Origin: Candidatus Marsarchaeota archaeon
GTDB lineage: Archaea; Micrarchaeota; Micrarchaeia; Micrarchaeales; Micrarchaeaceae
Length of the DNA: 64,000 nt
Reading direction: 5' to 3'
Assembly: GCA_023473665.1 (NCBI GenBank)
Contig: JAMCYM010000002.1
Coordinates: forward strand, 124,001-188,000
In this document: positions 3,001-9,000 of the stretch, in pieces
Numbering within the stretch: position 1 is the first letter of the stretch
Layout: each line of letters starts with the position of its first letter
Position numbers: made by a program

Positions 3001-6000
3001 AGCATATTGGAGAAGAAGGAGGAGCGCGGCATGGGCATGACGATAGACGTGATACTGTATGATGGCACGCTTCATGTCAACGACACGATAGCGTTCGCAT
3101 GCATCGACGGCACTGTCAAGACAACGAAGATAAAGGCGCTGCTCAAGCCGAAGCCTCTTCACGAAATGCGCGAGTCGGCCAGCGGCTTCAGCTACGTCGA
3201 ATCGGTAAGCGCTGCAGCAGGCGTAAAGATAAGCGCTCTGGGCCTCGAGGATGCGATTCCCGGCTCATCGGTCATACAGACAACGTCGCGCAACTACCTG
3301 GAAGAGATAAACTCGGAGCTCGGCGACGTATTCAAGACCGACAAGTTGGGCCTGATATTGAAATCCGATTCGATCGGAGGTATAGAAGGCCTTTCGAAGC
3401 TTCTCGAGTCAGAGGGAATAATGGTCAGCAAGAAGGGCATAGGCAGCGTCACGAAGCGCGACGTGATTGACGCTTTCTCAATGAACGGCAAGGATCCGCT
3501 GTATTCGGTCGTGCTGGCATTCAACGTCGGCATTGACCAGGATGCCGAGGAGGCCGCCTCGTCAAGCGGCGTAAAGATAATGCGAGGTTCCATAATCTAC
3601 AAGCTGGTCGACGACTACAAGGAGTTCGCCGAACAGAAGCGCGCCAACAGGGCAAAGCAGGTTGAGGAGCGCCTCTCGATGCCGGCGATGTTGCAGGTGG
3701 TGCCAGGCGCGTGCTTCAGGATATCGCACCCTGCGATATTCGGCGTAGACATAACGGAGGGGAGCATAAGGCCCGGCAACGTGATCATGAACGAGGCAGG
3801 CGACACGGTCGGCAGGCTCAAGGGCATACAGAACGAGAAGTCGCCGATGGCCGTCGCGAAGAAGGGCGATCGCGTGGCCGTCTCTATGGACGAGCCGACA
3901 TTCGGCCGCCAGGTTCGCGAGAACCAGGTGCTATACACGCGCGTCAGCGATGACGACGCGCGTATGCTGAAGGGAGAATTCTCGCCGCTGCTGGGCGATG
4001 TCGACCGGGAGCTGCTGCAGAAGATACTTGACATAAAGGCCAATGCGAAGCAGTCGAAGAAGCAGGGAGCCTCATAGACATATGCCAAAACCTACAGGGA
4101 CAGATGTCAAAGTAGCAGAAGTTTTATCGGCATACATCTGTTTTGCGCTCATCCTTTTAAGCTGCAGCGCCAAGCTCCTCTCATCAAAAGCGATAATATG
4201 AAAAACATCAGGGTATCGAGAAATTCCTATGAAAGGCTCGAGGAGCAACCGGTAGAGTATGTTGAGAGGAAGGGCTTGGGGCACCCGGACAGCCTTATAG
4301 ACGGCATAGTCGAGAGGGCCAGCGTCGAGCTCTCTAACGCATACATGGACGCGGCAGGCATGATACTGCACCACAATGTGGACAAGGGCCTGATAATAGG
4401 CGGCAGCTCAGAGGCGCGCTACGGCTACGGTGCGATAACCCGGCCAATAGAGGTGATACTGACGGGCAGGGCGGTGCAGGAATACCAAGGCACGCGCATA
4501 CCTGTTGACGAAATAGCGGTTCATGCCGCATCATCCTACCTGAAGGAGCACACCCGCTTCCTCGACATGGAAAAGGAGGTAAGAATAGAGTCGAAGATCG
4601 TGAAGGGTTCTAACGACCTGATCGGCATATTCGGGAAGGGCACCGACATGCCGTTAGCAAACGACACCTCATTTGGCATAGGCTTCGCCCCGTTCACGAC
4701 AACCGAGCGCCTGGTTCTTGAGGCAGAGCGCATGCTCAACAGCAAGCAGTACAAGGAAGCAATGCCTGCCGTTGGCGAGGACATAAAGATCATGGGAGTG
4801 CGCGATGGCAGCACGATAATGCTGACCATCGCAGTGGCATTCGTTGCGCCCCTGATTGCAAGCGCCGACGATTACGCTTCGAAGAAGGAGCGCGTTGCGC
4901 AAGACGTGGCCGAATTCGCAAGGAAGCTTGTTGGCCGGGAAGTCGAAGTGGCAGTCAACGTGGGCGACCACAGCGATGACGGCTTTGTCTACCTGACGAA
5001 ATCAGGCCTAAGCTGCGAGTCTGGAGATGATGGCTCTGTGGGCAGGGGCAACAGGGTCAACGGGCTCATAACCCCGTTCAGGCACATGAGCCTGGAGGCC
5101 GCGGCCGGCAAGAACCCGGTCAGCCACGTCGGCAAGATATACAACGTGCTTGCCAATGAGATTGCGAACGACATAGTCAATGCATACCCCCAAGTGACCG
5201 AATGCGGCGTCTCTATGGTGTCGCAGATAGGCCGGCCTATAGATGATCCAAAGCACCTTGACATAAAGGTTAACACCGAAAGGCCGGAGCAGGCCGATGC
5301 GCTGGCCGGCAAGCTTTCAGACCTGGCCGAGCAGTCGCTTGCCAATATAGGCTTCCTCACGAAGGAGATACTCGCCGGCAAGCACTCAATGTTTTGAGCG
5401 CCTGCGTCTAAACCTGCCAGCCACGAACGCCTTGAGCGCGCTGTCCAGTACGCTGTCATTAGGCTTGAGCTCGTACGATACCTGGACTATCGGCTTGTTA
5501 GCGTTGAGTATGCCCCTAAGGTTGGTTGGCGTTGCTGACACCACGGTGTCGCAATCAGCAAGGTTTATCGTGTTCTGGAGGTCGCTTATCTGCTTCTGCG
5601 AATAGCCCATGGCCGGCAGTTCGTCGTTCAGGCGCGGGTACCTGTCGAAAGTGTCCCTTATCGTTCCCTGGGCATACGGTTTCGCGCTCACGATCTCCTT
5701 GGCCCCGAACTGCTTCGCAGCTACCGTGCCGGCGCCGAACTTCATCTCGCCATGTGTTATGGTGGGACCGTCTTCTATTATGAGCACGCGCTTACCCTTT
5801 ATCATGTTCGCGTTGTCCACGCTTACCACAGAGTCCGCATATGTGATTTTCGCAGTCGGGTTTATCGAGCGCAGGTTCTTGACGAGCACGTCAAGCTCTT
5901 CTTTCGTCGCTGAGTTCACCTTGTTGATAAGAAGTATGTCGGCCATCTCAGCCACTTCAGTGCCCGGATAATACGACAGCTCATTTCCGGCCCGGAGCGG

Positions 6001-9000
6001 ATCTGCCACGGTAATGAGAAGGTCAGGCTTTATGAACGAGGCATCGTTGTTCCCACCGTCCCATATTATCACGTCTGCCTCTTTCTCTGCCGCCTCCAGT
6101 ATCTTCCCGTAATCAACACCGGAGTAAAGCACGAAGCCGTTCCTTATGTGCGGTTCATAGTCTTCGCGCTCCTCGATAGTGCATTTGTACTTATCAAGAT
6201 CCTTGAGCGTGCTGAACCTTTCGACAATCTGGTCCTTAAGCTCCCCGTAGGGCATGGGATGCCTTATGAGCACCACCTTGAGGCCCTTGTCGCGCAGGAA
6301 CTTCGCTATGTAGCGCGATGTCTGGCTCTTGCCGCTGCCTGTTCTTACCGCGCACACAGCTATGACGGGCTTGTTCGACTTTATGTATGCTTTCTCTGGA
6401 GCTATGAGCCAGAAGTCGGCACCATTCGCATTGACAAGGCTCGCCTTTGTCATCACGGCGCCGTACTGGAGGTCGCTGTACGCCTGCACGCATATGTCTG
6501 CCTTTAAGTTCCTTATCAGCTTCGCGAGCTCCGACTCGTCATAAATCTTTATGCCGTCTGGGTATAGCTTGCCGCTGAGCTCCTTTGGGTATACCCTGTT
6601 CGAAATGAATGGTATCTGCGCTGCGGTGAAGGCCACTACCTCATAAGCTTCGTTGTCCCTAAACAAGACGTTGTAGTCGTGAAAGTCCCTTCCGGCAGCC
6701 CCGATGATGATTACCTTCTTCCTGTCCATGCGATCACATGCGGTATTTACAAGCAAAGCGTATAAAGCATTCCTGGCAATCAATAGTGTGAAAACCGTAA
6801 TAGCGCTTGGCGGCAACGCTATATTGCGCGAAGGCGACAGGCCGACGTACGCAAATCAGTACGCCAGAATAAGGGCCACCGCTGCGCAGATCGCGAAGAT
6901 AGCCAAGCGCGGCGGCAAGCTGCTAATAACGCACGGCAACGGGCCGCAGGTCGGCGATGAGCTCCTGCGCAACTGGTACGCCAAGCAAAAGGTTCCCCCA
7001 TTCCCGCTCTATCTGCTCAACGCAGAGACGCAGGCGACTGTAGGGAGCATGATTGTCACTGCGCTGTCGAACGAATTCATAAGGCAGCGCATTCGAAGGC
7101 AAGTGGTTGCCGTGATTACGCATGTTGAGGTCGATGCCAACGATCCCGCATTCAAGCGGCCAGACAAGCCTGTCGGGCCATTTTATACGCACGCTGAGCT
7201 TGCCAAGGAACTGAAGCACGAGAAATTCAGTTACGTGCCAGAGAAGGGATTGTATAGGCGTGTTGAGCCGTCGCCAAGCCCAAAGGCTGTGCTTGAGATA
7301 GACGCGATCGGGGAGGTGTTTGAGAGTGGTGCAGTGGTCGTGGCAGGCGGAGGCGGCGGCGTGCCTGTCATCAGGCGCCATGGCGCATACGTAGGCACAA
7401 GCGCTGTGCTTGATAAGGACAGAACGACACAGCTGCTAGCAAACAAGCTTGGCGCAGACACGATGCTCATGCTCACCAATGTAGGCTATCTGTACAAAAA
7501 CTACCATGACAGGGGCTCAGCCATACGCTCGATAAGCGCCGAAAGGCTCAAGCGCATGCTGCCTAGCCTCGAAGCCGGCACGATAAGGCCGAAAGCCTCT
7601 GCATGCGTCAGCTTCATCGAGAACGGTGGCCGGAGGGCCTACATAGGCAACCTCTCGGGCCTCGATGCCATGCTTGACGGTACGGCCGGAACGACGATAA
7701 CCAAGTAAGATTCTAGCCGTTCCGCTAATTGCCGATCGCACAACACCATTAAGAATATTGTCCATTTATTCTAATTGCGACCTTCGGCCCGGTGTACCTA
7801 TGTATTACAGTGAGCACAAGCGCGTCAAGCGCATAGAATCGCTGCTCTCCACTTTAGCATATGCGTCAGTAGGGTCCGATCTCTTCGTAGCCGCTGCGAC
7901 TTTTCTGGTGGTCAGGAAGATGCAGTATTCAACTACGCTCCTCGCTTTCAGCGATTACATCATACTGATAGAGACTGCGCTTGCAGGTGCGATCTTCGTA
8001 ACGATAGTCGCGCTTAAGTACTACCGCAGGCTTGCAGAAGGGCTCTCACTGTCGATGTTCAGGGCCAAGCACAGCATCAGGGCAACCAAGCCGATGCTTG
8101 CCAGATGAACCAGTCCGGCCAGTCACGAGTATATTCCAGTTACGCAGCTCTGCGGCTTCATGTAGCTGACGTTGAAGAACCTCATAGCATTGTCCGCCCA
8201 GCACTCGCCATTGGACGACTCGCTCTCGAGCTTGGCGATCTGCCCTGCAGTGAGCGTGTAAGAATAGCCCACTCCCGGCACGTCGACTTTGCCATTGGCC
8301 GAGCGATAAATTGTTCCGGTGCCTATGTCAAGCGTCGAGTTGCTGAAATTTACGTATGTAAGGTAACACGGTGAGCCTGAAGCTATGCCGTCGACTACTG
8401 TGCTTACATCACTGTAATTGGCCGTGCTGTAAAAGAACAGCGCCGGGCAGGCGAATGCACCTGGCGCAGTTCCACTAGGAACTCCTGAAACGGTATGCGC
8501 GTGCGCGGCAGCGTATGCCCCGTAATAAGCCATCGCGCCGCCTCCTATTACGGCAGCCACAACTGCTATTACTACGCCATATACCTGCCAATGCGGCATC
8601 GCTTTGGCTTCTCCGCGCGAATAGCTGTTACTGAGCTTGAAATACTTCATGCGCCTGAAATGGCTGTTGTCATCCTCTACAACCTTCCCCATGTGCTTGA
8701 GCTCTGCTATATGCTGGCTGACCGTGGCCTTGGACAGGCCAAGCTCTTCGCTGAGCTGCGTAACAGTTTTCCTACCTGAGCGCAGGCTCTCAATCAGCAT
8801 GGCCTTGGTCTCGAATGTCTTGCTCATGCCCACACACACTAGACGTTCGTCGCGTTATCTATAAATAGCGCTAGCAGACGGTTAGGTTTATGTTCGGTTT
8901 TATCCTGCCTTGAAGCGGGCGCAGTCTTTCAGCTACTGTTTCACTTCGGCCACATTCACGCTAAGTTTGTCGGAAAAGAATGGCTGCCTCTTCAGTTCCG

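What a model noticed while it worked through the whole genome (the two positions that open the first line are those of the whole stretch)
5386..7708. Arginine synthetase pathway as ATP source in a genome without glycolysis
The genome pairs arginine synthetase ArcE (g00596) divergently with carbamate kinase (g00597) and has ornithine carbamoyltransferase, giving the recently found ATP-yielding arginine route without arginine deiminase. Ornithine aminotransferase (in an operon with ADP-forming acyl-CoA synthetase), P5C, proline and glutamate dehydrogenases and a 2-oxoacid:ferredoxin oxidoreductase continue it, while enolase, PGK and a heme-copper oxidase are not found: an arginine/proline fermenter.
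Evidence so far: g00596 is 56% identical to T. kodakarensis ArcE, E 9e-178; g00597 carbamate kinase, g00146 OTC, g00423, g00392, g00383/g00772, g00447, g00289-290, g00421-422 (tables, calls 3-7). ArcE in 23 of 41 phylum genomes. ADI, enolase, PGK and COX1 families each 0 of 5 including own and two single-contig relatives. Main text of PMC5864196 has no 'arginine', 'ornithine', 'proline' or 'carbamate'.
(Added by a program. Inside this text positions count along the whole contig: contig position 124,001 is position 1 of the stretch shown here. "Call 12" and the like, gene names such as g00115 and contig names such as C1 are that model's own, and its searches are not shown. The text may have been shortened before it was handed on; [...] marks where a part breaks off. 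The agent that wrote the report below was given it as the finding of a first reader that could run no searches.)

Follow-up and report, generated by a model that had tools for sequence, protein, structure and literature searches.

The report
Two-ATP arginine pathway in tiny archaeon
A tiny mine-waste archaeon in which no sugar-breakdown genes were found carries a known three-gene set that likely turns scavenged arginine into two ATP; the set is common in its family, so this is a new host for a known pathway, and calling the cell a pure fermenter goes beyond the evidence.

Summary
The genes are real. Window 5386-6729 encodes an ArcE orthologue (56-57% to Thermococcales arcE genes), divergent from carbamate kinase (6788-7708). 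OTC lies elsewhere. ADI, enolase, PGK, pyruvate kinase, pyrB, CPS and ArgG were not found in this 96%-complete genome. In its family (56 genomes), ArcE is in 36, full-length ADI in 7 and both in none. Carbamate kinase is in 39 of 43 genomes with either entry enzyme and 0 of 13 without. pyrB and enolase are each in 4 of 55 relatives. Best reading: redox-neutral arginine-to-ornithine breakdown, likely 2 ATP per arginine.

Three corrections. (1) ArcE plus ArcC without ADI is already tabulated for a Micrarchaeota genome in the 2024 paper's Table S1, and this scan noted it in six other DPANN genomes. (2) A TobZ/NodU-like carbamoyltransferase (48 of 56) is a rival use for carbamoyl phosphate. (3) 'Fermenter' is not established. 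The genome has an 11-subunit complex I, ATP synthase genes and a cytochrome b, but no electron sink was found for the ornithine/proline branch, and that branch does not track ArcE.

The parts
5386..6729 (-). arcE, arginine synthetase orthologue (447 aa, ATG at 6729; P-loop fold family)
   Evidence: 56-57% identity over 420 aa to four Thermococcales arcE genes; keeps 91 of 92 near-invariant columns; only a partial match to the cPGS structure 9sxb, E 5e-9
6730..6787 (.). 58-bp divergent intergenic region with one AT-rich element (about 6760-6767) that may act as TATA box for both genes (inferred)
   Evidence: The element lies 27 bp before the arcC start and 38 bp before the arcE start; genome-wide TATA-like peaks lie at 28-29 and 36-40 bp before start codons among 315 operon-first genes
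6788..7708 (+). arcC, carbamate kinase (306 aa, GTG start)
   Evidence: TIGR00746 292 bits, below the cut-off of 358; best PDB hit carbamate kinase 1e19, E 4e-64, against 1e-10 for acetylglutamate kinase; carbamate kinase motifs (recalled) present

Best explanation
The two divergent genes encode an arginine synthetase orthologue and a carbamate kinase that, with the ornithine carbamoyltransferase encoded elsewhere in the genome, likely break imported arginine down to ornithine, ammonia and CO2 and would yield two ATP per arginine without needing an electron acceptor. Shown: the three genes, their family assignments, and the failure to find ADI, enolase, PGK, pyruvate kinase, pyrB, CPS and ArgG. 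Inferred steps: (1) arginine comes from peptides and amino acids taken from a host or the surroundings (several peptidases and two APC permeases are present; their specificity is untested); (2) ArcE converts Arg + ADP + Pi to citrulline + NH3 + ATP; (3) OTC converts citrulline to ornithine and carbamoyl phosphate; (4) CK converts most carbamoyl phosphate to ATP, and a small share probably feeds the TobZ/NodU-like O-carbamoyltransferase. Ornithine is either exported or oxidised through the aminotransferase, P5CDH, GDH, OFOR and acyl-CoA synthetase. That second branch is shared with proline and needs an electron acceptor that was not found. The route is one of several ATP sources, not shown to be the main one.
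For: ArcE orthology. In T. kodakarensis the enzyme makes ATP from arginine and the knockout grows more slowly even with proline (PMC11032458). CK did not supply carbamoyl phosphate in vivo there (PMC13260591). No anabolic context in G000: pyrB, CPS, ArgG, ProC and NiFe hydrogenase not found. Family of 56 genomes: CK in 39 of 43 with ArcE or full-length ADI and 0 of 13 with neither; OTC in 42 of 43 against 3 of 13; ArcE and ADI together in 0 of 56; 30 of 33 genomes with ArcE+OTC+CK lack pyrB and 29 of 33 lack enolase. arcE has been placed beside arcC in separate lineages: G000, L016, L030 and four family-f8 loci.
Against: No expression or activity data. The reaction is near equilibrium and reversible (Keq about 10, PMC11032458 abstract). 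A carbamoyl-phosphate consumer is in 48 of 56 family genomes. 13 of 56 family genomes have neither ArcE nor ADI, so the route is dispensable in the family. Single-contig G099 has CPS with ArcE and OTC but no pyrB or ArgG, which fits arginine synthesis there. No clear arginine/ornithine antiporter: both permeases score best to TIGR00909, far below its cut-off. CK is below its NCBIfam cut-off. The genome has two unclosed gaps. Relatives are not independent observations.
Confidence: 0.7

Rival explanations
1. ArcE and OTC are kept mainly to supply carbamoyl phosphate to the TobZ/NodU-like O-carbamoyltransferase (probably modifying a surface glycan), with CK only removing the excess.
For: The carbamoyltransferase is in 48 of 56 family genomes, more than ArcE, matches TobZ at E 2e-55, and lies beside a glycosyltransferase and a PMT-like membrane protein. 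No CPS in G000. Two genomes without any arginine route carry a stand-alone carAB with no pyrB or OTC (G025, G033). A carbamoyl-phosphate-supplying role is shown in T. kodakarensis.
Against: 5 of the 7 carbamoyltransferase-positive genomes lacking ArcE, ADI, OTC and CK showed no CPS either. 4 of 36 ArcE genomes lack the carbamoyltransferase. CK would compete for carbamoyl phosphate, yet tracks the arginine entry enzymes, 39 of 43 against 0 of 13.
Confidence: 0.13
2. One reading: the cell is an arginine/proline fermenter that oxidises ornithine and proline to succinate and lives on substrate-level ATP alone.
For: All enzymes of the oxidative branch have candidates. No terminal oxidase found. In the assembled genome atpB is frameshifted by a tandem duplication.
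Against: The branch releases about four electron pairs per ornithine (pathway knowledge) and no fermentative sink was found. NuoA-D and H-N are present with a true NuoD lacking NiFe cysteines. NuoD is in 51 of 56 family genomes, and 20 of these 51 have a bd oxidase. Contigs from other samples run across the atpB repeat ends at flank depth, which fits an intact single copy there. The aminotransferase is in 4 of 4 tested genomes with no arginine route, and P5CDH orthologues are in 53 of 56.
Confidence: 0.08
3. ArcE runs in the synthetic direction: proline gives P5C and ornithine, CK gives carbamoyl phosphate, and ArcE makes arginine.
For: ArcE is reversible, and the discovery paper proposes this role where ArgG/H are missing. 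ProDH and the aminotransferase are present. G099 has CPS, OTC and ArcE without ArgG or pyrB.
Against: No CPS in G000. CK could not replace ArcE/OTC as carbamoyl-phosphate source in T. kodakarensis. Irreversible ADI takes ArcE's place in 7 family genomes, all with OTC and 6 with CK. No amino-acid synthesis pathway appeared in the Pfam survey.
Confidence: 0.05
4. The protein is a cyclic 2,3-diphosphoglycerate synthetase or a GTPase, as public annotations of its relatives say, and not ArcE.
For: Sources name the close relatives 'cyclic 2,3-diphosphoglycerate synthase' or 'GTPase'. The only PDB hit is cPGS.
Against: The cPGS match is partial (E 5e-9) against 57% over 420 aa to Thermococcales arcE genes. 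The discovery paper notes this low similarity to cPGS. No PGK or enolase was found to give or use phosphoglycerates.
Confidence: 0.02

Closest known systems
Arginine synthetase pathway of Thermococcus kodakarensis (ArcE TK2200, ArcB TK0871, ArcC TK2158; PMC11032458, PMC13260591)
   Same: ArcE 56-57% identical to Thermococcales orthologues; OTC and CK present; ADI, CPS and ArgG not found; a class III aminotransferase whose best PDB hit is 7vno (its identity as an ornithine aminotransferase is recalled).
   Different: No pyrB, ProC or NiFe hydrogenase found, so the known anabolic sinks are missing. Proline is set up for oxidation (ProDH, P5CDH). A TobZ/NodU-like carbamoyltransferase is the only carbamoyl-phosphate sink found besides CK. 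The host is a 0.78-Mb DPANN archaeon from mine waste.
DPANN genomes in Table S1 of PMC11032458 (Ca. Fermentimicrarchaeum limneticum, GW2011_AR10, GW2011_AR20: arcA 0, arcC 1, arcE 1)
   Same: Same gene pattern, including one Micrarchaeota genome.
   Different: Table rows only; the Discussion's list of archaeal hosts does not name DPANN. The family-wide pattern and the loss of enolase and pyrB are not treated in the parts read.
Arginine deiminase pathway in Micrarchaeota (PMC8407392; Ca. Micrarchaeum sp. A_DKE arcA 1, arcC 1, arcE 0 in Table S1)
   Same: Same OTC and CK steps and the same end products.
   Different: ADI yields one ATP and is irreversible. All 9 strong full-length ADI hits among 201 genomes lie in genomes without ArcE; two weaker hits (G134, G098) are in ArcE genomes.
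Micrarchaeota energy metabolism in Chen et al. 2018 (PMC5864196)
   Same: NuoEFG-less complex I, cytochrome b without Rieske protein, OFOR, ADP-forming acyl-CoA synthetase and ATP synthase are described there.
   Different: That paper has no arginine route in main text or supplement. G000 shows no bd oxidase, SDH or TCA cycle.

Membership tests
Arginine synthetase ArcE (TK2200 family) | Full-length orthology to TK2200-type proteins | tested here: met
   56-57% over 420 aa to four Thermococcales genes carrying the TK2200 reverse-primer site; T. kodakarensis itself was not retrieved
Arginine synthetase ArcE (TK2200 family) | Conserved residues retained | tested here: met
   91 of 92 columns near-invariant among 58 other sequences are kept; the exception is Phe to Tyr
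Arginine synthetase ArcE (TK2200 family) | Arg + ADP + Pi to citrulline + NH3 + ATP activity | not testable with these tools
   Needs an enzyme assay
Arginine synthetase pathway | OTC (ArcB) present | tested here: met
   TIGR00658 320 > 281 and PRK00779 340 > 306; a single OTCace-family gene
Arginine synthetase pathway | Carbamate kinase (ArcC) present | tested here: met
   Best hits are all carbamate kinases; score below the TIGR00746 cut-off, as for 75 of 97 phylum hits
Arginine synthetase pathway | ADI absent | tested here: met
   PF02274 no match in G000 in six frames; genome 95.87% complete with two gaps
Arginine synthetase pathway | Catabolic flux in vivo | not testable with these tools
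   Inferred from gene content and co-occurrence only
Cyclic 2,3-diphosphoglycerate synthetase | Full-length high similarity to cPGS | tested here: not met
   9sxb E 5e-9, best stretch residues 199-322 only
Ornithine omega-aminotransferase (PRK05769 type) | Closest to the Thermococcales enzyme rather than to racemases or GABA aminotransferases | tested here: inconclusive
   PRK05769 516 < 552; 7vno E 1e-107 against racemases E 2e-72 and 3e-67; also present in 4 of 4 genomes with no arginine route
Amino-acid fermenter | Internal electron sink and no respiratory complexes | tested here: not met
   No sink found; complex I and ATP synthase genes present

The most novel reading that the evidence does not exclude
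Arginine drained from the host is the main self-sufficient ATP source of the glycolysis-free Micrarchaeaceae. ArcE was inherited from the ancestor of the order and was swapped for ADI in several genera. The same route supplies carbamoyl phosphate for surface-glycan carbamoylation. The oxidative proline/ornithine branch passes electrons through complex I to a quinone pool that the cell cannot reoxidise with any known oxidase (31 of 51 complex I genomes show no bd oxidase, 0 of 56 show COX1), so it would lean on a host respiratory chain or an unrecognised terminal reductase.
Probability: 0.15. Interest if true: 0.72.

Novelty: new member of a known kind. Interest (0 to 1): 0.36.

Why it matters
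How ARMAN-type archaea make ATP without glycolysis is poorly explained. The reconstructions checked here do not name ArcE or carbamate kinase (PMC5864196 text and supplement; PMC12892359 main text has no 'arginine' or 'carbamate', and its stored, cut supplement lists ADI but not those two), and databases label the gene as cPGS or GTPase. A redox-neutral two-ATP route in 33 of 56 family genomes gives a simple cultivation lead (add arginine) and an annotation fix. It is not a new system: the enzyme, the pathway and one Micrarchaeota carrier are already in print. The open puzzle is the missing electron sink for complex I.

Tried and rejected
The forward TK2200 primer found no match; the reverse primer returned five Thermococcales loci but not T. 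kodakarensis, so identity to TK2200 itself stays indirect. No RNA holder was listed for the locus, which says nothing about expression. IQ-TREE did not finish; the FastTree run leaves deep nodes unresolved, so the phylum-level origin of ArcE is open. Names for 10 representative proteins were uninformative. The ADI query was translated in the wrong frame and that row was dropped. The complex I as a hydrogenase was rejected: NuoD has no NiFe cysteines. The F420-oxidoreductase-domain protein as ProC was rejected: it scores as NpdG-like. Ornithine-to-proline reduction as electron sink was rejected on stoichiometry, since it is redox neutral overall. The idea that CPS replaces the arginine route wherever the carbamoyltransferase is kept held in only 2 of 7 genomes. 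I first took the atpB duplication for an assembly error, but it has double depth in the possible source run. The cytochrome b has no conserved redox partner in 10 loci. A looser Pfam scan of 134 proteins, chosen among those without a hit, showed no terminal reductase. Literature searches without a Micrarchaeota ArcE paper.
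Full report
Observation. The window holds a 447-aa ORF at 5386-6729 (-) and a 306-aa ORF at 6788-7708 (+), head to head and 58 bp apart. A contig from a different sample spans 4200-7626 with two differences, and runs from two further studies tile the locus, so the arrangement is real. Holders are mine-tailings, mine-drainage and sediment metagenomes from three studies, one run being the possible source. The genome is 778,769 bp in three contigs and 95.87% complete. 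Two contigs overlap by 127 bp and two gaps remain. Close relatives of the first protein are mostly named Micrarchaeaceae, Micrarchaeia or Micrarchaeota where a name is given.

Identity of the two genes. The first protein has only a marginal Pfam hit and no NCBIfam family, and sources call its relatives cyclic 2,3-diphosphoglycerate synthase or GTPase. The one PDB hit, cPGS, is partial at E 5e-9. The TK2200 reverse primer from the discovery paper matched five Thermococcales loci; four full-length genes there are 56-57% identical over 420 residues. T. kodakarensis itself was not returned. The protein keeps 91 of 92 near-invariant columns among 58 other sequences. The second protein is a carbamate kinase: best PDB hit 1e19 at E 4e-64, TIGR00746 292 bits, under the cut-off like 75 of 97 phylum hits. 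One AT-rich element lies 27 bp before arcC and 38 bp before arcE, at the two genome-wide peaks for TATA-like motifs, so a shared promoter is possible but inferred.

Whole-genome content. I called 852 ORFs and scanned the 807 of at least 70 aa against Pfam (scans), then 32 enzymes against NCBIfam. Present: one OTC that passes its cut-offs; a class III aminotransferase after ADP-forming acyl-CoA synthetase beta and alpha; P5CDH-like, ProDH, GDH, OFOR and an E1-E3 complex; branched-chain and class I aminotransferases; several peptidases; two APC permeases. A second ProDH-like gene is 24% identical and has no Pfam hit. Not found in six-frame family searches: ADI, pyrB, enolase, bd oxidase, COX1, CPS, PGK, ArgG, SDH/FRD, NiFe hydrogenase, ProC, ornithine cyclodeaminase, pyruvate kinase and Rieske protein. 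Each search rang in control genomes.

Family pattern. ArcE is in 112 of 201 phylum genomes, CK in 97 and pyrB in 97. Enolase is in 108 of 109 genomes outside the order but 4 of 55 in the own family, so its absence is a lineage trait and not a gap. In the family (56 with G000), ArcE is in 36, full-length ADI in 7 and both in none. CK is in 39 of 43 genomes with either enzyme and 0 of 13 with neither; OTC is in 42 of 43 against 3 of 13. Of 33 genomes with ArcE, OTC and CK, 30 lack pyrB and 29 lack enolase. One pyrB hit under the cut-off (G072) was dropped because it is that genome's OTC. Phylum-wide, two weaker ADI-family hits (G134, G098) do sit in ArcE genomes. Kin are not independent and these are incomplete genomes. 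The tallies include unpublished G028 and G197; no conclusion depends on them (25 instead of 26 family genomes lack both pyrB and enolase without G028).

History. All 28 ArcE sequences sampled from the order form one FastTree clade (local support 96), and deeper nodes are unresolved. In 25 of the 29 closest loci arcE lies beside gyrB or a radical SAM, VKOR or HD gene, and only 2 of 29 have CK within 1.5 kb. It faces gyrB in 8 of 9 loci of the sister family. G000 has that gene cluster without arcE, so the arcE-arcC pairing here is a later move. The same divergent pairing recurs in four loci of a distant family, three of them followed by an aldehyde dehydrogenase gene.

How it most likely works. 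By analogy with T. kodakarensis, where ArcE forms ATP from arginine and the knockout grows more slowly even with proline, ArcE, OTC and CK would give two ATP per arginine with no redox load. The direction is inferred. The anabolic sinks known from Thermococcus (pyrimidines, hydrogenase maturation, proline synthesis) were not found, CK did not supply carbamoyl phosphate there, and irreversible ADI substitutes for ArcE in relatives.

First, G000 has a TobZ/NodU-like carbamoyltransferase beside glycosylation genes, found in 48 of 56 family genomes. This is a likely second use of carbamoyl phosphate. Of 7 genomes that keep it without any arginine route, 2 have a stand-alone CPS and 5 showed none. 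Second, the downstream branch is oxidative and does not track ArcE: P5CDH orthologues are in 53 of 56 genomes and the aminotransferase is in 4 of 4 tested genomes without the route. Third, the genome encodes NuoA-D and H-N with a true NuoD, an A-type ATP synthase operon, a membrane pyrophosphatase, a ferredoxin and a four-histidine cytochrome b. NuoD is in 51 of 56 genomes; 20 of these have a bd oxidase and 31 do not, and COX1 is in 0 of 56. No electron sink was found in G000, so 'fermenter' is unproven. atpB carries a 603-bp tandem duplication that shifts the frame. It has double depth in the possible source run, while contigs of three other runs cross its ends at flank depth.

Comparison with print. 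PMC11032458 (seen: abstract, Discussion, first part of Results, physiology section, supplement search and part 2 of 3) lists Ca. Fermentimicrarchaeum limneticum, AR10 and AR20 as arcC+ arcE+ arcA-, and Ca. Micrarchaeum A_DKE as arcA+ arcC+ arcE-; its Discussion does not name DPANN. Figures S10 and S11 are pictures and were not seen. PMC13260591: abstract and Discussion seen. PMC8407392 (passages) reports ADI in 28.6% of Micrarchaeota. PMC5864196 (passages, supplement search) already describes the NuoEFG-less complex, the Rieske-less cytochrome b, bd oxidase and acyl-CoA synthetase, and has no 'arginine'. PMC12892359 (passages; supplement cut when stored) has no 'carbamate' or 'arcE' in what was searched. 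Seven searches found no paper on ArcE in Micrarchaeota. The library lacks most subscription papers, and the Fermentimicrarchaeum description was not read. The role of PDB 7vno as an ornithine aminotransferase is recalled; one search gave listings only. This scan noted the same pathway in six other DPANN genomes.

Verdict. A real and correctly identified ArcE pathway in a new host of a kind already tabulated. The family-wide co-occurrence, the exclusion with ADI, the carbamoyltransferase sink and the missing electron acceptor are useful additions. New member of a known kind; interest 0.36.

Noticed in passing
G000:C1:215660-216864 (L042:230-1434); also C1:261762-263323 and C1:268726-270183: Three perfect tandem duplications (603, 783 and 732 bp) in contig C1. 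The first frameshifts atpB and has double depth in the possible source run but appears single-copy in three other runs. The others hit a CCA-adding enzyme and an MFS transporter.
   Followed up: partly
L039:12036-16209 (G000:C1:168629-172802): TobZ/NodU-like O-carbamoyltransferase in an operon with a PMT-like membrane protein, next to a GT2 glycosyltransferase gene; the family is in 48 of 56 Micrarchaeaceae-level genomes. Possible carbamoylation of a surface glycan.
   Followed up: partly
L064:16184-17650 (G000:C3:283155-284624): Stand-alone 489-aa cytochrome b-like protein with four heme-ligand histidines and no Rieske partner; strong orthologues in 22 of 56 family genomes, with no conserved neighbours in 10 loci.
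   Followed up: partly
L033:9963-16741 and L047:3234-5610: 11-subunit complex I split into two operons; 31 of 51 family genomes with NuoD show no bd oxidase and none shows COX1, including single-contig G099.
   Followed up: partly
L145:9107-13212, L146:2448-6675, L147:7613-11840: Stand-alone carAB in G099, G033 and G025, none of which has pyrB; G033 and G025 also lack OTC.
   Followed up: partly
G193:C1:712801-713913: Single-contig relative with ArcE, two OTC genes and CK has a NiFe hydrogenase large subunit and no NuoD, so it may be a true hydrogen-producing fermenter.
   Followed up: no
L063:6966-7625 (G000:C3:254017-254679): 220-aa membrane protein without Pfam hit whose homologues lie next to cydAB (L083, L084) and next to the cytochrome b-like gene (L099, L100) in relatives.
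   Followed up: no
L066:1479-2336, L058:2658-3056, L039:1079-1822: Agmatinase, SAM decarboxylase and spermidine synthase-like genes are present without a recognisable arginine decarboxylase; a further possible arginine sink.
   Followed up: no
window 8933-9637: Beta-carbonic anhydrase-like gene (PF00484, E 7e-10) 1.2 kb from carbamate kinase; may handle the CO2 released, or be chance proximity.
   Followed up: no
window 12530-18379, 23049-28671, 28685-36945: A very long ORF (up to 1949 aa) without Pfam hit, a type IV pilus/T2SS ATPase and membrane cluster, and three LamG-domain proteins; candidate host-attachment machinery.
   Followed up: no
G064, G164 (one search hits) and G181: Three family genomes keep OTC without ArcE, full-length ADI or CK; two have weak amidinotransferase-family hits in 280-320-aa frames.
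   Followed up: no
G000:C2 start and C3 end: Both ends carry the same 127-bp sequence in inverted orientation with a hairpin, probably the edge of an unassembled repeated element.
   Followed up: no
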